Below are positions 17,566 to 21,971 of a stretch of DNA of 64,000 nucleotides, piece by piece; positions within the stretch are counted from its first letter, which is position 1, and every line of letters begins with the position of its first letter. The DNA is taken from assembly GCA_025999275.1 (NCBI GenBank), contig AP024680.1, positions 492,522-556,521 on the forward strand, given 5' to 3'. The position numbers were made by a program, and so were the translations under genes. The DNA is from Patescibacteria group bacterium (GTDB lineage: Bacteria; Patescibacteriota; Microgenomatia; UBA8517). The notes below the pieces were generated by a model that ran no database searches, was not told the origin of the DNA, and was given only the letters and a program-made list of their open reading frames with translations.

Positions 17566-18243
17566 ATGAATAAAAAAAGCCGCATTTTTTGGTTTGTTTA
17601 CATCTTTTTTATTTTGTTTTTTTCTTTTAGTGTTTTTAAAAACGTCTTCTTTCAATTCTCTTTGACTAAACAGATTAACTCTTTTCTTTTTATTTCAAAT
17701 TTATTACAGAGACTTAGCGGGTCTGTTGCTCTTTTTCTTCTCTTTGTGCAAATAATATTTGGTGCTTATAGACCTAAACTTTCAAAATTGCTTGGCAATT
17801 GGGTGATGAATTTCCATATTTGGCAGGGAAGGGTAATTTATGTTTTGGTTTTGATTCACACATTTTCTTTACTTTTGTTTAATTTTATTTCAAAAAAGGG
17901 TTTTGACCCATTTTATGTTTTTGTTGATTTTTGTGTTTTATGTCAGACAAGAAAGGAATTGTTTTATTCTTTTGGCAGATTTGGTTTTTGGTTGTTGAAT
18001 TTAGCAATTCTTTCGGCTTTGGTGAGGAAAGATAATTGGTGGAGGCAAAACTGGCGATATTTCCACATCTTAAACTATTTTCTTTTTTTCTTAATTTCTC
18101 TTCACGCTTTCTTTATCGGTTCTGATTTTTCTTTGAGAGTTGGATATTTAGGAAAGTTGAATCTATTTTTTTCTATATTTGTTATTTCAGTCATTTTGGT
18201 TAGATTTTTTAATTGGTTTTTAAAGAATTTTAAACTGTCGTAG
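17566..18243 (+). CDS. Six-TM membrane protein with ferric-reductase-like (MsrQ/YedZ-type) bis-His heme b motifs
   Basis: Six predicted TM helices. His pairs 'FHIWQGRVIYVLVLIHTF' (H-x13-H) in TM3 and 'FHILNYFLFFLISLHAF' (H-x12-H) in TM5 match the FRD-domain heme-ligand layout. The start is 10 nt after tRNA-Val. Confidence 0.4.
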   Translation: MNKKSRIFWFVYIFFILFFSFSVFKNVFFQFSLTKQINSFLFISNLLQRLSGSVALFLLFVQIIFGAYRPKLSKLLGNWVMNFHIWQGRVIYVLVLIHTFSLLLFNFISKKGFDPFYVFVDFCVLCQTRKELFYSFGRFGFWLLNLAILSALVRKDNWWRQNWRYFHILNYFLFFLISLHAFFIGSDFSLRVGYLGKLNLFFSIFVISVILVRFFNWFLKNFKLS

Positions 18244-18314: not shown

Positions 18315-18551
18315 TCAGGGAATGCAGGTATAGTTGGGAAAACAATCAGGTTCACATTCTGTTTCAGGGTAACATTCTGGTCGACAAGATGGATTGCAGT
18401 TGGGATAACACAGAGGTGGCCAGCAATCTTCGTCTTCTGTTTCGCAACGTGGTGGCCAGCATCCGGGGCCACAATGGGGTTTACAATCATGCTCTTTTGT
18501 ATTTCTTGTTGTTACTAATTCTATTGTAGGTATTTGCTTTTGTTCTACCAT
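18315..18551 (-). CDS. Cys/Pro-rich RiPP precursor-like peptide (78 aa: 22-aa leader plus 12-Cys core)
   Basis: Translation from the ATG at 18551: MVEQKQIPTIELVTTRNTKEHD-CKPHCGPGCWPPRCETEDEDCWPPLCYPNCNPSCRPECYPETECEPDCFPNYTCIP. It lies 41 nt downstream of the rSAM/SPASM gene on the same strand and has no signal peptide. The ORF track merges it into a longer ORF (18315..18740) that overlaps the rSAM gene. The internal Met is the plausible start, but there is no obvious SD. Confidence 0.55.
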   Translation of the reverse strand: MVEQKQIPTIELVTTRNTKEHDCKPHCGPGCWPPRCETEDEDCWPPLCYPNCNPSCRPECYPETECEPDCFPNYTCIP

Positions 18552-18592
18552 CTTAAACTGTAAATAAATTTTAACTCTAGTTTGGTAAAAGT

Positions 18593-19876
18593 TCAACTTT
18601 CTATAGGAAAATATTCTGGTTCTCCTTTTTCGTTTTCTTTCCAAAGCCCTTTTCCCCATTCTCCTGTATATGGATTGTAAGTACATCTTGAGTAGGGGGC
18701 TAGGTAATTTCCAGAATTTCCAACAGATACCGGTCGGCAATCATTGCAGGCATAACGATATTCGCAATCTCTACATACAGGTATTTTATCTTTAGTTATT
18801 CTCCACACCTCTTGGGTTTCTTCTGATTCAGCAATTTCTTTTAGTGATTTTTCTTTAATATTTCCTAAAGCTCTTCTTCTATAGAAAACACAGGGTATTA
18901 CTTTACCATCGGGACAAATTGATAGTTTTCCAGCAAGGCAATTGTGCCAATACATATTTCTACGAAAAGATTTTTCGCTAGTTGAAAAATCTGGTCTCAT
19001 AAAAAGAGATATTTGTTTCCTTAGTTCCATGCTGGGAATTAGTCCAGAATTTTCTGAAGTATTGTCTGGTCTTATAATGTCTGGCATTCTTGTTAACATT
19101 CCTTCTTTTTTAAGCCATCTTATTAATTCTGATAATGTGTCTTCATTTTGTTTCATAGCTATTACAGCTATTCTTACTGGCACTTTGTTTCTTCTAAGAA
19201 TTTCTATAGCTTTCATTGTTTTTTCAAAACTTCCTTTTTTTTGAGTTATTGATTCATGAGTTTTAGGGTCGAGAGAATATAGGGAAAGGGCGACAGAAAC
19301 TTTGAGATCTCTTAATATTTGAATCTTTTTTTCATCTAGTAATGTGGCGTTGGTAAAGTATTCTATTTTTTCAATTCCTACTTTTCTCATTAGTTCAAGT
19401 AGATCGTATGAATTATTACCTTCTTCTCTGTATAGATCTGGTTCTCCACCTATGATAGTAGCTGCTTTTATGCTATTTTCCCCTAATTGCATGATGATAT
19501 TTCCCCAATCTTTGAAGGTTAGGCGATCTTCATTTCTAATAGTTGCAGGTCCGAATTTGCCGTAGCAATGAATACATCTTAAGTTGCATTTTTCTGTGAG
19601 TTCTAACCATACAAATGACAATTTAACTTCTGGTGGTATTTTTTCTTGCTCTTCTAGAGATTCTTTTGTTTTGACTGCTAAACCTAAATTAAATAGAGTT
19701 TCCCAGAAATCTTCGTTATAACTTCTTTTTGTAATTACTTCTATAGCAAGTGGATTTATAGAGTATACATTACCTTTTTCAAGGTCGTATAAAGCTCCTC
19801 GTAAAGCTCCCTCGACTAGTTTTACACTTGGGCGTAGATGCCAACTTGGAGATTCTGAACTTATTTCTTTAGACAT
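18593..19876 (-). CDS. Radical SAM/SPASM-domain peptide maturase with N-terminal PqqD-like RRE
   Basis: CX3CX2C motif 'CNLRCIHC'. C-terminal SPASM-type Cys cluster 'C..SICPDGKVIPC ... CRDCEYRYACNDC' (7 Cys, room for two auxiliary Fe-S clusters). The N-terminal ~90 aa ('GALYDLEKGNVYSINPLAIEVI') resemble a PqqD/RiPP recognition element. Confidence 0.85.
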   Translation of the reverse strand: MSKEISSESPSWHLRPSVKLVEGALRGALYDLEKGNVYSINPLAIEVITKRSYNEDFWETLFNLGLAVKTKESLEEQEKIPPEVKLSFVWLELTEKCNLRCIHCYGKFGPATIRNEDRLTFKDWGNIIMQLGENSIKAATIIGGEPDLYREEGNNSYDLLELMRKVGIEKIEYFTNATLLDEKKIQILRDLKVSVALSLYSLDPKTHESITQKKGSFEKTMKAIEILRRNKVPVRIAVIAMKQNEDTLSELIRWLKKEGMLTRMPDIIRPDNTSENSGLIPSMELRKQISLFMRPDFSTSEKSFRRNMYWHNCLAGKLSICPDGKVIPCVFYRRRALGNIKEKSLKEIAESEETQEVWRITKDKIPVCRDCEYRYACNDCRPVSVGNSGNYLAPYSRCTYNPYTGEWGKGLWKENEKGEPEYFPIES

Positions 19877-19949
19877 TTTAATAGGACAGATTATAATAGT
19901 ATTATACCTTATTTTTGGTTATTTTTCTATTTTTAATGTCTTTAATTAT

Positions 19950-21971
19950 TTAATTATCATCAAAATTAATTTCTTTTATTATGGGTAATTTGCCTTTGAT
20001 TTTATATTCTTTCCAAGAATAATCTCCGTTTTTTAGGAATTGGCCCACCAGGAGTGTTGATTCGCTGGAGAGTGGCAATATTCCTATTTTGTATTTTCCT
20101 GATTTTGGGTTTAGATAAGCTGCTACATTATTTTTGTCTTTTTTGATTTTGCCTTTTGTATCAATTGTCAAAAATGTGGCAGGGTGGGCAATTATTACTA
20201 ATGCAGAGTTTGGTTCTTCATTTGCTGTTGAAGTTAATCCTGTAGTATTAGCTTCTCCTTTTAGAAAATTTATAATTGTTTGGATTCCTTCTTGGGAGTA
20301 GACCAATCCACCGTGGTTTTGATTTATTTCAAAGTTTTGTGCCCCATCAACTTTAGCGCTTTTTGAAAGTACAGTCCCATCTCCCTGATACGTGGTTTCT
20401 TTTCCTGCTGGTTTTCCTTCTTCCCAAATTCCCTCCTTTTTCTCTTTTTTGTTTGGTTCTTTGACTTTAATATTTTCTAATGTTTCAAACCCATTGCCTG
20501 AAAGAGTGGCAATTATAGTGTTGGTTTGGGAAGGAAAATTGCTTTCAAGAAGCCATTTGTTTGTATCTACTCCTTTTAGTTGTCCGTTTCTGTCTCTTAA
20601 GAAAGTGTATGTAGGGAGTAAATCCTGAAAAGAAGGTGCGATGCTTCTTAAAGTTTCCATGTCATTTTTATGATTTATCCCACAGCGTTTAATCAAGAGT
20701 GTGGCAGCAATTTTTGTTACCAAACTGTTATTCCAAATTTGACCGCCATACCAAGCAGGGTAGGCAAGAGCTGTGCCTTGATGAGGTGATCCGGCTGAGA
20801 TGTATTTATAAATTTTATTATCGTTATTGTTTTCAATATAAGCCCTTCCAACCAGTCCTCCCATGCTATGTCCGACGAAATTGATTTTCTCATTTTCTAG
20901 TAGTTGCAGGTTGTTGAGGAGATTATCAATTTCTTGATTGTGGGAGGGTATATTTTTTCTCCAGTCATAGTAGAAAGGATAAACAGTAAAGCCGTTATCT
21001 TGAAGTGACGAGATTAAAGGTTGGTAAATATCTTCTGCAAAAGGTGCCATAGTCCAATTACCAGAATAGTTATCCAATTTGCAGTTTAAAATTGCATCTG
21101 TGTTCCAGCTCGCTCCCATTCCCGGTGCGAGAATGACTTTGGTTGGAGGAGGTGTTGGTGTAGGAGTAGGTGTGAGAGTGGGGGTAGGGATGGGGGTAGA
21201 AGTGGTGGTTGGTGTGGGAGTTTCAGTTTTTATTTTTTGGACTAGGACATTGTCAAATGTAGTAGTGTTAGGGGTTTGAGGCCACACCAAAAGTCCTACA
21301 GCTCCTTCATAGAAAGGAGTGTTTGTTGAAGTTTTCTTATCAATGTAATCTATTAGAAGGTTATTATCAACGTATACTTTAATTGATACATCCTCTGTTA
21401 TGTTTAAGACCTCAATCCGTATGTTGTAGTAGACATTTGGATAATTCTCAATTTTAGATGTTGCTAGGATTGACCCATAGTTGCTTTTTAGATCTGGTGA
21501 TTTGAACAAAACTATATCATTCCCATCTGAGGTGGCGTAATGGCTTCTTAGGTCTACTTCATAAGCTGATCTTGTTTCCTTATTAAAATAGAAGAAAATT
21601 GTTTTGTCTACATTGTCTATTCCTTTTATTTTTACTGAGAAGCTGTAGTTTTTCCAACTGCTGTCTCCATTGTATGTATAGGAGTTTCTCCTTGTATTTC
21701 CACTTGGGGAAGCTGTTCCTACATATTCGCCATTATCTACATACCAATCTCCATTAAATATTTCCTCAGTCCAATCATTTGAATTACCATCATTAAAATC
21801 GTCATAGAGTAATATACTGCTTTCTCCGTGTATACTGTTTGTGGGGTTAAAAAGAGGGAGAATCACGGTTGCAATTAGTATGAAGAGGATGGGTTTTAAT
21901 AAGGTAATTATATTTTTGTTACAGGATTTTGTTCTTTTCGGTGGGTGAGAAATACCAGAAGTTGTTATCAT
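19950..21971 (-). CDS. Secreted/membrane-anchored multidomain LCAT-like alpha/beta-hydrolase (lipase/phospholipase family) with N-terminal concanavalin-like (DUF1080-type) domain
   Basis: N-terminal hydrophobic anchor, then a jelly-roll domain ('SILLYDDFNDGNSNDWTEEIFNGDWYVDNGEYVG', 'YEVDL'). This is followed by a Thr/Pro linker 'TPTPTTTSTPIPTPTLTPTPTPTPPPT'. The hydrolase domain has 'ILAPGMGAS', the LCAT-family 'YDWR' motif and the nucleophile elbow 'GHSMGG'. Confidence 0.6.
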   Translation of the reverse strand: MITTSGISHPPKRTKSCNKNIITLLKPILFILIATVILPLFNPTNSIHGESSILLYDDFNDGNSNDWTEEIFNGDWYVDNGEYVGTASPSGNTRRNSYTYNGDSSWKNYSFSVKIKGIDNVDKTIFFYFNKETRSAYEVDLRSHYATSDGNDIVLFKSPDLKSNYGSILATSKIENYPNVYYNIRIEVLNITEDVSIKVYVDNNLLIDYIDKKTSTNTPFYEGAVGLLVWPQTPNTTTFDNVLVQKIKTETPTPTTTSTPIPTPTLTPTPTPTPPPTKVILAPGMGASWNTDAILNCKLDNYSGNWTMAPFAEDIYQPLISSLQDNGFTVYPFYYDWRKNIPSHNQEIDNLLNNLQLLENEKINFVGHSMGGLVGRAYIENNNDNKIYKYISAGSPHQGTALAYPAWYGGQIWNNSLVTKIAATLLIKRCGINHKNDMETLRSIAPSFQDLLPTYTFLRDRNGQLKGVDTNKWLLESNFPSQTNTIIATLSGNGFETLENIKVKEPNKKEKKEGIWEEGKPAGKETTYQGDGTVLSKSAKVDGAQNFEINQNHGGLVYSQEGIQTIINFLKGEANTTGLTSTANEEPNSALVIIAHPATFLTIDTKGKIKKDKNNVAAYLNPKSGKYKIGILPLSSESTLLVGQFLKNGDYSWKEYKIKGKLPIIKEINFDDN
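21127..21237 (-). repeat. Imperfect 6-nt (ACN-CCN) tandem repeat encoding the Thr/Pro linker
   Basis: The plus strand shows reiterated GGTGTN/GGGGTN units ('ggtgttggtgtaggagtaggtgtgagagtgggggtagggatgggggtag...'). This is a coding microsatellite-like tract inside the lipase gene. Confidence 0.5.

What the first reader, a model, noticed from the sequence alone, without database searches (positions are those of the whole stretch)
18315..18551. Precursor core is a near-periodic C-x-P-x-C ladder, unlike known Cys-rich RiPPs
Core: CKPHC GPGC WPPRC ETEDEDC WPPLC YPNC NPSC RPEC YPETEC EPDC FPNYTC IP. Four consecutive units are exactly C-x-P-[N/S/E/D], and 'CWPP' occurs twice. Every Cys has a hydrogen-bearing polar residue 2-3 positions away. 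That is the right spacing for ranthipeptide-type Cys-S to beta/gamma-carbon (Asp/Asn/Glu/Thr/Ser) crosslinks or short sactionine rings. With 10 Pro in 56 core residues the peptide would be pre-rigidified. The coding DNA is visibly GC-richer than its surroundings because of Cys/Pro/Gly codons. Alternative roles are a metal (Cu/Zn)-binding or disulfide-ladder peptide. The start codon is inferred (internal Met of a longer track ORF that overlaps the maturase) and has no obvious SD, so translation may be coupled to the rSAM gene.
Basis: seen in the sequence. Interest (0 to 1): 0.8.

Follow-up and report, generated by a model that had tools for sequence, protein, structure and literature searches.

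The report
Cys-x-Pro repeat peptide with radical-SAM partner
This is a real small gene for a peptide built from repeated Cys-x-Pro units. It sits beside a radical-SAM enzyme that almost certainly modifies it, and the same unnamed gene pair occurs in dozens of distant bacteria and some archaea.

Summary
Window 18315..18551 (-) encodes a 78-aa peptide with a 22-aa leader and a 56-aa core. It lies 41 nt downstream of a radical SAM/SPASM gene (18593..19876, -).

The pattern is conserved. In 69 of 80 homologous loci a co-oriented small ORF made of C-x-P units lies next to the enzyme. These loci come from Patescibacteria, Chloroflexi, Negativicutes, Clostridia and archaea. Across 731 Cys, Pro occupies +2 in 95%, while +1 and +3 are unconstrained.

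No Pfam or NCBIfam model, database name or searchable paper covers it.

The chemistry is not resolved. The most likely reading is a thioether made inside each C-x-P unit. An anSME-like Cys-to-formylglycine conversion remains a rival.

Verdict: a new variant of a known kind, of moderately high interest.

The parts
18315..18551 (-). Precursor peptide gene (78 codons plus stop): leader plus C-x-P repeat core
   Evidence: ORF and translation. 52% identical over 64 aa to the peptide next to the homologous rSAM in a Woesebacteria genome (L004/P0122). The same arrangement occurs in 69 of 80 loci.
18486..18551 (-). Leader region, residues 1-22 (MVEQKQIPTIELVTTRNTKEHD)
   Evidence: It contains no Cys. 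Its boundary is set by the first C-x-P, and leader lengths are comparable in homologues. The cleavage site is unknown.
18510..18530 (-). Leader box P-T-I-E-L-V-T (residues 8-14), the proposed RRE-binding strand
   Evidence: A P-[TE]-I-x-L-V-[TS]-like box lies 5-15 residues before the first C-x-P in 37 peptides. Archaeal peptides carry EPTIELLEP or KPTIEKINP. Binding to the RRE is inferred, not shown.
18318..18485 (-). Core, residues 23-78: 12 Cys and 13 Pro, with 11 C-x-P units, the last ending at the C-terminal Pro
   Evidence: for counts, shuffles and GC. for family-wide conservation of the C-x-P unit.
18593..19876 (-). Radical SAM/SPASM peptide maturase (427 aa)
   Evidence: Pfam Radical_SAM 2e-23 and SPASM 1.1e-11. 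No NCBIfam model reaches its cutoff. AF2 model pLDDT 86.6. Foldseek hits to SuiB, SkfB, anSME, CteB, TigE and PqqE. 768 homologues at E<=1e-10.
19661..19876 (-). N-terminal RRE-like domain of the maturase (about residues 1-72)
19565..19588 (-). CX3CX2C radical-SAM cluster motif (C97, C101, C104)
   Evidence: Sequence CNLRCIHC. These Cys are invariant in 31 homologues.
18683..18940 (-). SPASM auxiliary-cluster region with seven family-invariant Cys (C313, C329, C368, C371, C377, C380, C398)
   Evidence: Invariant columns in alignment A1. Pfam SPASM matches residues 316-372.
19901..19929 (-). Promoter-like site (TAGAAA-17-TATAAT) just upstream of the rSAM gene
   Evidence: 10 of 12 matches. This is a consensus match only; the number of sites in the region does not exceed shuffles.
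18568..18596 (-). Weaker promoter-like site (TTGAAC-17-TAAAAT) in the rSAM-peptide gap
   Evidence: 9 of 12 matches. Consensus match only.

Best explanation
The region is the precursor gene of a two-gene RiPP cassette that belongs to a widespread, so far unnamed family.

Shown:
- The peptide has a Cys-free leader carrying a P-T-I-E-L-V-T box, and a core made only of C-x-P units separated by 0-4 variable residues.
- The adjacent enzyme is a radical SAM protein with a full seven-Cys SPASM domain and an N-terminal RRE fold.
- This pairing and the C-x-P unit are conserved across phyla.

Inferred:
- The leader box binds the RRE as an added beta-strand.
- The core is threaded through the active site, and each C-x-P unit is modified on its own.

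The chemistry I consider most likely is a radical thioether. 5'-deoxyadenosyl radical abstracts an H atom from a carbon inside the unit, and the carbon radical is captured by the Cys sulfur. The acceptor would be the invariant Pro at +2, or the alpha-carbon of the +1 residue. Each unit would become a small ring, giving a stiff string of up to 11-12 rings with a mass change of -2 Da per unit.

The biological role is unknown. The window has no protease or exporter gene in the cassette. By analogy with the SCIFF two-gene cassettes, the product may act inside the cell or leave by generic routes.
For: - Real, conserved gene. 69 of 80 loci that encode a homologue of the rSAM carry a same-strand C-x-P ORF next to it. 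ORFs with 4 or more C-x-P number 70 adjacent against 1 elsewhere in 644 kb over six frames, and that one is the antisense of a real peptide.
- Unit definition. Among 731 Cys, Pro is at +2 in 95%. No other position is conserved. Cys-Cys spacing is 3-9 and almost never below 3. Archaeal peptides keep C-x-P even when units are 10-20 residues apart. 48 of 75 peptides end within 3 residues of the last unit, and 5 end at its Pro.
- Leader and RRE. A conserved leader box is seen. The N-terminal domain matches TbiB1, TfuB1 and PqqD RREs.
- Enzyme class. Radical_SAM plus SPASM. There are seven invariant SPASM Cys and no eighth conserved Cys for auxiliary cluster I. From my knowledge of the CteB structure, this is the arrangement that leaves a site for a substrate thiolate.
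- Closest solved sequence relative is the thioether synthase SkfB (profile E 2e-19). AlbA and StsB sactisynthase models score 62-107 bits, all below cutoff.
- Orthologue conservation. The window peptide and the L004 peptide share CWPPLCYPNC.PSC.PEC, although their enzymes are only 42% identical.
Against: - No modification has been observed. The chemistry rests on analogy.
- Thioether formation onto proline is not described in anything I could search.
- An invariant Pro could be purely conformational, as in the sulfatase C-x-P-x-R motif.
- Similarity to sactisynthases is weak. General SPASM enzymes score as well or better (AhbD, NirJ2, and the C-terminal part of TIGR04193).
- The window has no protease or transporter, so maturation and export are unexplained.
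- Expression of the peptide in this organism is untested. It is not annotated in the GenBank record.
Confidence: 0.55

Rival explanations
1. anSME-like oxidation. The enzyme abstracts a C-beta hydrogen from each Cys in C-x-P and converts it to C-alpha-formylglycine (or a thioaldehyde-derived product), giving a poly-aldehyde peptide. Pro(+2) serves only as a recognition or turn element, as in the sulfatase C/S-x-P/A-x-R motif.
For: - C-x-P is the core of the sulfatase maturation motif. In the searchable literature 'Cys-X-Pro' appears mainly in that context.
- anSME is the PDB protein that aligns over the longest stretch (residues 93-382) and is a good structural match (TMt 0.62-0.63).
- A Cys-only reaction explains why no acceptor is conserved.
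Against: - Arg at +4 occurs in only 5% of units, and Ala never replaces Pro.
- The anSME model TIGR03942 scores 52-72 bits against a cutoff of 349.
- anSME Cys276-Asp277 aligns with C329-V330, and position 330 is Ile in at least 90% of the family. Asp277 is the proposed catalytic base, which I know from the anSMEcpe structure paper and did not re-check here. So that base is missing.
- anSME has no RRE and needs no leader, whereas this enzyme has both.
Confidence: 0.13
2. One reading: a classical ranthipeptide or sactipeptide in which each Cys sulfur is linked to the beta/gamma carbon of a nearby Asp, Asn, Glu, Thr or Ser two or three positions away, or to an alpha carbon in a short sactionine ring spanning units.
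For: - Polar residues are common at +3 (R 24%, N 13%, S 11%, D 10%, T 7%).
- In this window the units read CYPN, CNPS, CRPE, CEPD, CFPN.
- Repeated Cys-x(n)-Asp/Asn motifs are known for freyrasin and NxxC peptides (my knowledge; NxxcB is cited in PMC11851443).
Against: - Position +3 takes all 20 residues, including Cys (52 units), Gly, Ala and Pro. C-x-P-C repeats leave no polar residue at all.
- Five peptides end at the Pro of the last unit.
- In Negativicutes +3 is Arg; in Patescibacteria it is Asp or Asn. The acceptor would have to differ by lineage while Pro stays fixed.
Confidence: 0.1
3. The Cys are not modified. The peptide works through free thiols (a metallothionein-like Cu/Zn/Fe-S binder) or as a disulfide-stapled rod. 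The rSAM enzyme either modifies another position (for example epimerisation or Pro chemistry) or is only genomically linked.
For: 12 Cys in 56 residues is metallothionein-like density. No export or protease genes are present. Core charge varies from -14 to +11 between lineages, so charge-based activity is not conserved.
Against: - A two-gene linkage kept from Patescibacteria to Bathyarchaeota, with a leader box and an RRE, is the signature of enzyme-substrate pairs.
- No Pfam metallothionein or other family matches.
- The strict Pro at +2 has no obvious role in metal binding.
Confidence: 0.08
4. The ORF is not translated. It is only the 3' tail of the rSAM transcript, and its Cys/Pro pattern is a compositional accident.
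For: There is no SD and no annotation in the GenBank record. Only one identical database protein exists.
Against: 0 of 200,000 shuffles reproduce the register. The same kind of ORF is kept next to the enzyme in 69 of 80 loci across phyla. SD-less starts are the rule in this genome. The DNA jumps to 49% GC only within the core codons.
Confidence: 0.02

Closest known systems
SCIFF / ranthipeptide cassettes (six-Cys-in-forty-five peptide plus rSAM/SPASM maturase such as CteB or Tte1186)
   Same: A minimal two-gene cassette: a Cys-rich precursor plus an RRE-bearing rSAM/SPASM enzyme. It is widespread in anaerobes and usually lacks a dedicated protease or exporter. The fold matches CteB (TMq 0.58).
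   Different: No NCBIfam SCIFF or PapB model reaches its cutoff for the enzyme or the peptide. SCIFF peptides have a fixed six-Cys C-terminal motif with Thr/Asp-type acceptors. Here there are 3-21 copies of C-x-P, Pro is the only conserved partner, and the leader box is different.
Sactipeptide synthases SkfB, AlbA and StsB
   Same: SkfB is the best solved-structure sequence match (E 2e-19 with the family profile). AlbA and StsB models give 62-107 bits. The substrates are Cys-containing.
   Different: All scores are far below the family cutoffs (300-850 bits). SkfB has a twitch domain and an N-terminal 2Fe-2S domain rather than a full SPASM plus RRE. Sactipeptide cores have few Cys and a hairpin topology, not tandem three-residue units.
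Repeat-motif rSAM RiPPs with three- to five-residue units (triceptides, WPR/WprB, WGK, NxxC, freyrasin CxxxD)
   Same: The logic is the same: a short motif repeated several times in the core, each copy cyclised independently between its first and last residue (WprB: three WPR motifs, Trp-C5 to Arg-C-gamma; PMC11851443). The Negativicutes members even read C-W-P-R.
   Different: WprB has a twitch domain and a separate RRE protein, and the WgkB model scores only 66-96 bits. Across this family the aromatic and Arg positions are not conserved; only Cys and Pro are. Copy number reaches 21.
Anaerobic sulfatase-maturating enzyme (anSME) acting on C/S-x-P/A-x-R
   Same: It is an rSAM enzyme with a SPASM domain acting on a Cys followed by x-Pro. 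It gives the longest pairwise alignment and a good structural match.
   Different: It has no leader or RRE. Arg(+4) is absent from these peptides. The Asp277 equivalent is Val/Ile. TIGR03942 scores far below its cutoff. Here there are many sites per substrate instead of one.
Grasp-with-SPASM system maturase (TIGR04193, Bacteroidetes)
   Same: It is among the three best-scoring NCBIfam models for three of the four rSAMs scanned, and first for the window enzyme. The match covers only the C-terminal SPASM part, residues 302-409 (97 bits).
   Different: The score is below the cutoff (175). Only the last third of the model matches. No ATP-grasp gene was found in any of the loci.

Membership tests
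RiPP precursor/maturase pair | A short precursor ORF adjacent to and co-oriented with the modifying enzyme | tested here: met
   The gap is 41 nt on the same strand. The same arrangement occurs in 69 of 80 homologous loci.
RiPP precursor/maturase pair | Bipartite precursor: a conserved leader motif plus a core that carries the modified residues | tested here: met
   A P-[TE]-I-x-L-V-[TS] box occurs in 37 peptides, and a PKW[DE]xPE box in 23 Negativicutes peptides. Cores consist of C-x-P units.
RiPP precursor/maturase pair | A RiPP recognition element (PqqD-like winged helix) in or next to the enzyme | tested here: met
RiPP precursor/maturase pair | A leader peptidase and/or exporter in the cluster | tested here: not met
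   The rSAM is the only universally conserved neighbour. The HExxH protein seen in 29 Patescibacteria loci is absent from the window. This feature is not obligatory for RiPPs.
RiPP precursor/maturase pair | A demonstrated post-translational modification of the core | not testable with these tools
   This needs co-expression and mass spectrometry.
Radical SAM / SPASM subfamily | A CX3CX2C cluster motif and a TIM-barrel core | tested here: met
   C97, C101 and C104 are invariant. Pfam Radical_SAM 2e-23. Foldseek hits to SuiB, SkfB, anSME and CteB.
Radical SAM / SPASM subfamily | The seven-Cys SPASM motif for two auxiliary clusters | tested here: met
   Pfam SPASM 1.1e-11. C313, C329, C368, C371, C377, C380 and C398 are invariant in 31 sequences.
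Sactipeptide / ranthipeptide | The maturase falls in a curated sacti/ranthi synthase family (AlbA, SkfB, StsB, PapB, SCIFF maturase) | tested here: not met
   AlbA 75 vs cutoff 850, SkfB 61 vs 300, StsB 62 vs 625 for the window enzyme; PapB 74 vs 340 for the archaeal L065 homologue.
Sactipeptide / ranthipeptide | A conserved acceptor residue at a fixed distance from the donor Cys | tested here: inconclusive
   No polar acceptor is conserved, and +1 and +3 are free. The only fixed partner is Pro(+2), which is not a known acceptor.
Sactipeptide / ranthipeptide | A Cys-S to carbon thioether in the product | not testable with these tools
   This needs MS/NMR.
SCIFF (six Cys in forty-five) | The precursor matches the SCIFF peptide model and its fixed six-Cys C-terminal pattern | tested here: not met
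   No NCBIfam or Pfam hit for the window peptide or for seven homologous peptides. Copy number is 3-21.
anSME / sulfatase maturation | Substrate motif C/S-x-P/A-x-R | tested here: not met
   C-x-P is present, but Arg at +4 occurs in only 5% of units and Ala never occupies +2.
anSME / sulfatase maturation | The enzyme reaches the TIGR03942 cutoff and keeps the Asp next to the auxiliary-cluster-I Cys (anSMEcpe D277) | tested here: not met
   59.8 bits against a cutoff of 349. The aligned residue is V330, and Ile in at least 90% of the family. The role of D277 is taken from my knowledge of the anSMEcpe structure paper.
Metallothionein-like metal-binding peptide | A match to a metallothionein family, or demonstrated metal binding | tested here: not met
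   No Pfam family at E<=0.01. Metal binding itself cannot be tested here.

The most novel reading that the evidence does not exclude
C-x-P is a self-contained three-residue macrocyclisation unit. The rSAM enzyme joins the Cys sulfur to a ring carbon (or the alpha carbon) of the Pro two residues on. I could not find a Cys-Pro thioether of this kind reported anywhere. The enzyme would do this 3-21 times per peptide, producing a rigid, protease-proof poly-cyclic rod. The family would then be a new RiPP class shared by ultra-small Patescibacteria, Chloroflexi, Negativicutes, Clostridia and archaea.
Probability: 0.25. Interest if true: 0.8.

Novelty: new variant of a known kind. Interest (0 to 1): 0.62.

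Why it matters
If the enzyme modifies every C-x-P unit, this is an undescribed RiPP family with very simple substrate logic: three residues, one of them free. It has an unusually wide host range. That range includes Patescibacteria with genomes below 1 Mb, which can afford few accessory genes, so the product is likely important to them.

The short autonomous unit would suit peptide engineering, because tandem small rings could be installed by one enzyme. It might also reveal a new radical crosslink, to proline, or the first leader-guided poly-formylglycine peptide.

There is a practical point for annotation too. These peptide genes are missed or called 'hypothetical', and the enzymes are named only 'radical SAM protein'. 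A simple C-x-P plus leader-box rule would recover them.

Tried and rejected
- Sequence searches with the peptide alone. The word-indexed search of 5.8 billion proteins found only itself. Exhaustive phmmer over 1.84 billion representatives found only itself, the L004 orthologue and two spurious repeat proteins. The family can be reached only through the enzyme neighbour.
- Pfam and NCBIfam scans of the peptide and of seven homologous peptides gave nothing.
- Pfam scan of 18 N-terminal domains at E<=10 did not detect PqqD. The RRE showed up only by structure.
- Nine literature searches found no description of a C-x-P repeat RiPP or a Cys-Pro radical crosslink. WprB (WPR motif) looked promising for the Negativicutes C-W-P-R repeats. 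It is a twitch-domain enzyme with a separate RRE, and its Trp and Arg positions are not conserved in this family.
- Three key subscription papers could not be read: Hudson 2019, Haft and Basu 2011, and Clark and Seyedsayamdost 2022. Prior mention there cannot be excluded.
- A search for conserved accessory genes found none in the window. The HExxH proteins, GNATs and tig-clpP-clpX synteny are lineage-specific. The HExxH proteins have no Pfam or NCBIfam assignment.
- Terminator scan: no intrinsic terminator pattern after the peptide, only a modest hairpin (z -2.0).
I could not measure which Cys surround auxiliary cluster I or dock the peptide.

Full report
**What is in the window**

On the minus strand, 18315..18551 is a 78-codon ORF: MVEQKQIPTIELVTTRNTKEHDCKPHCGPGCWPPRCETEDEDCWPPLCYPNCNPSCRPECYPETECEPDCFPNYTCIP. 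It starts 41 nt after the stop of a 427-aa gene (18593..19876, -). That gene carries Pfam Radical_SAM (2e-23) and SPASM (1.1e-11) domains.

Eleven of the 12 Cys are followed by x-Pro. None of 200,000 composition-preserving shuffles reached 11 C-x-P (maximum 9). No other ORF in the 64-kb window has even three such motifs. The core DNA is 49% GC in a 35% GC window.

The missing Shine-Dalgarno is not informative. Only 8 of 46 long ORFs in this window have an SD-like motif. A TTGAAC-17-TAAAAT match sits in the gap before the peptide.

The organism is a Patescibacteria MAG. The enzyme is 100% identical to 'hypothetical protein KatS3mg088_522'. The peptide itself is not in that GenBank annotation; the only database copy comes from a Logan assembly.

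**Is the pattern conserved?**

The peptide alone finds almost nothing by sequence. The enzyme has 768 homologues at E<=1e-10. A scan of one genome per species returned 201 confirmed loci, of which 80 were kept. They come from Microgenomates and other Patescibacteria, WWE3, Dojkabacteria, Chloroflexi, Negativicutes (Pelosinus, Sporomusa, Propionispora and others), Clostridia, a few other phyla, and Thermoproteota/Bathyarchaeota.

- In 69 of the 80 loci, a small ORF on the same strand directly beside the enzyme contains 3-21 C-x-P motifs.
- ORFs with four or more C-x-P occur 70 times in that position and once elsewhere in 644 kb over six frames. The one exception is the antisense of a real peptide.
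- Examples: CWPRQQ repeated 7-10 times (Pelosinus), CFPRQ nine times, CSPCSPCNP runs (Clostridia), and CGPDCFPPDC...CWPPLCYPNCSPSCSPEC in a complete Woesebacteria genome.
- That last peptide is 52% identical to the window peptide over 64 residues, while the two enzymes are 42% identical.

The data answer it in favour of the finding.

**What exactly is conserved**

Over 731 Cys in 75 peptides, Pro occupies +2 in 95%. Roughly half of the 35 exceptions lie before the first C-x-P unit, in the leader region.

- Position +1 takes 19 residue types, including Gly (30 units) and Pro (43 units).
- Position +3 takes all 20: Arg 24%, Asn 13%, Ser 11%, Asp 10%, Cys 8%.
- Cys-Cys spacing runs from 3 to 9 and is almost never shorter than 3.
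- Archaeal peptides keep C-x-P even when units are 10-20 residues apart.
- 48 of 75 peptides stop within three residues of the last unit. Five, including this one (…TCIP), stop at its Pro.
- Core net charge ranges from -14 to +11 between lineages.

The functional unit is therefore the tripeptide C-x-P, and it looks autonomous.

**Leader and recognition**

Thirty-seven peptides, including the window's (PTIELVT, residues 8-14), carry a P-[TE]-I-x-L-V-[TS]-like box 5-15 residues before the first Cys. Archaeal versions read EPTIELLEP and KPTIEKINP. Twenty-three Negativicutes peptides instead have PKW[DE]xPE, an acidic run and [IV]-G just before the first C-x-P.

The full-length model (pLDDT 86.6) aligns with SuiB, SkfB, anSME, CteB (TMq 0.58), TigE and PqqE. 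Together these results show a leader-guided rSAM/SPASM RiPP system. Actual binding of the box to the RRE is inferred.

**What the enzyme probably does**

The radical-SAM Cys (C97, C101, C104) and seven SPASM Cys (C313, C329, C368, C371, C377, C380, C398) are invariant.

No curated model claims the family. For the window enzyme and three distant homologues, the best NCBIfam hits stay far below their cutoffs. These hits are the C-terminal part of TIGR04193, AhbD, NirJ2, TIGR04053, AlbA, StsB and SkfB. The closest solved sequence relative is the thioether synthase SkfB (E 2e-19 with the family profile).

I favour a thioether formed inside each unit, for three reasons:
- rSAM/SPASM-RRE enzymes paired with Cys-rich cores are, in every characterised case I know, sulfur-to-carbon crosslinkers.
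- Known repeat-motif rSAM RiPPs join the first and last residue of the motif. An example is WPR in WprA (PMC11851443).
- Here the only two fixed residues are Cys and Pro.

A bond to the alpha carbon of the +1 residue is also compatible with the data.

The main rival is anSME-like oxidation of Cys to formylglycine, because C-x-P is the heart of the sulfatase motif. Several points count against it:
- Arg(+4) is absent.
- The anSME model scores 52-72 bits against a cutoff of 349.
- The residue aligned with the anSME catalytic Asp277 is Val/Ile. The role of Asp277 comes from my own knowledge.
- anSME uses no leader or RRE.

None of this is proof. Mass spectrometry would separate the options at once: -2 Da against -18 Da per unit.

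**Context and function**

In the window the cassette is just two genes. Upstream on the same strand, with its own promoter-like site in between, lies a large secreted esterase-like protein (19950..21971). A ferric-reductase-like membrane protein (17566..18243) converges on the cassette from downstream. Neither is a conserved neighbour.

Lineage-specific neighbours are:
- an unannotated HExxH protein in 29 Patescibacteria loci, absent from this window;
- GNATs in Clostridia;
- tig-clpP-clpX synteny in Negativicutes.

One deltaproteobacterial homologue places 14 C-x-P units between a Tat-like signal (SRRGFIK) and a peptidoglycan-binding domain. This hints that, at least there, the modified segment is exported after cytoplasmic modification. 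The biological role remains unknown.

**Novelty**

The kind is known: a Cys-rich RiPP made by an RRE-bearing rSAM/SPASM enzyme. The C-x-P repeat family, its leader boxes and its enzyme clade are not covered by Pfam, by NCBIfam (June 2026) or by public protein names. Those names read only 'radical SAM protein' or 'hypothetical protein'. None of the papers I could search covers it either.

Three relevant subscription papers could not be read, so an earlier mention cannot be ruled out. I rate this a new variant of a known kind. There is about a one-in-four chance that it hides a genuinely new crosslink, Cys to Pro.

Noticed in passing
L038:5630-6475 (-), L001:5627-6508 (-), L013:5618-6373 (-) and about 26 other Patescibacteria loci; absent from the window: Two clusters of ~250-290-aa proteins with an HExxH motif sit immediately beside the C-x-P peptide gene (20 and 9 loci). 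They have no Pfam or NCBIfam assignment. They could be leader peptidases or HExxH tailoring enzymes of this system.
   Followed up: partly
L036, L037, L039, L042-L044, L048, L050-L052, L055, L056 and others (Negativicutes loci), upstream of the rSAM gene: In 23-25 Negativicutes loci the rSAM plus C-x-P pair lies next to trigger factor, clpP and clpX on the opposite strand. I cannot tell whether this is functional linkage or plain synteny.
   Followed up: no
L031:5245-5787 (+): A deltaproteobacterial homologue encodes a 181-aa protein with four parts in order: a Tat-like signal (SRRGFIK), a PPEIKAA leader-like box, 14 C-x-P units, and a PG_binding_1 domain (1.1e-13). This suggests an exported, wall-attached version of the modified segment.
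   Followed up: partly
whole window (46 long ORFs): Only 8 of 46 long ORFs have an SD-like motif within 20 nt of the start. Several, including the rSAM gene at 19876, have a TATAAT-like box within about 25 nt of the ATG. This suggests very short or absent 5' leaders as the norm in this genome.
   Followed up: partly
window 18315-18551 (-): The peptide gene is not annotated in the public GenBank record of this genome. The only database copy is a Logan-assembly gene call. The Pelosinus and Sporomusa peptides tried were also not found with the start sites I chose.
   Followed up: partly
window 19950-21971 (-): A 673-aa protein directly upstream of the cassette combines three parts: a 3-keto-disaccharide-hydrolase-like (DUF1080-type) domain, a Pro/Thr-rich linker, and an alpha/beta-hydrolase domain of the LCAT/PGAP1/palmitoyl-thioesterase type. 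It is not a conserved neighbour of the system.
   Followed up: no
window 17566-18243 (+): A 225-aa membrane protein with a ferric-reductase-like transmembrane domain (Pfam 1.1e-08) converges on the peptide gene. It is not conserved next to the system in other loci.
   Followed up: no
L026:2432-3036 (+): One Anaerolineae locus lacks a C-x-P peptide. Instead it has two tandem upstream peptides with a different Cys pattern (…GPGCSCNSHCACDSFC…), perhaps an alternative substrate type for this enzyme clade.
   Followed up: no
L047, L049, L063, L067, L078 (Clostridia loci), downstream of the peptide: One or two GNAT acetyltransferase genes follow the C-x-P peptide in five loci, and a Cys-rich ~256-aa protein of unknown family follows in four of them. 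These may be lineage-specific tailoring genes.
   Followed up: no
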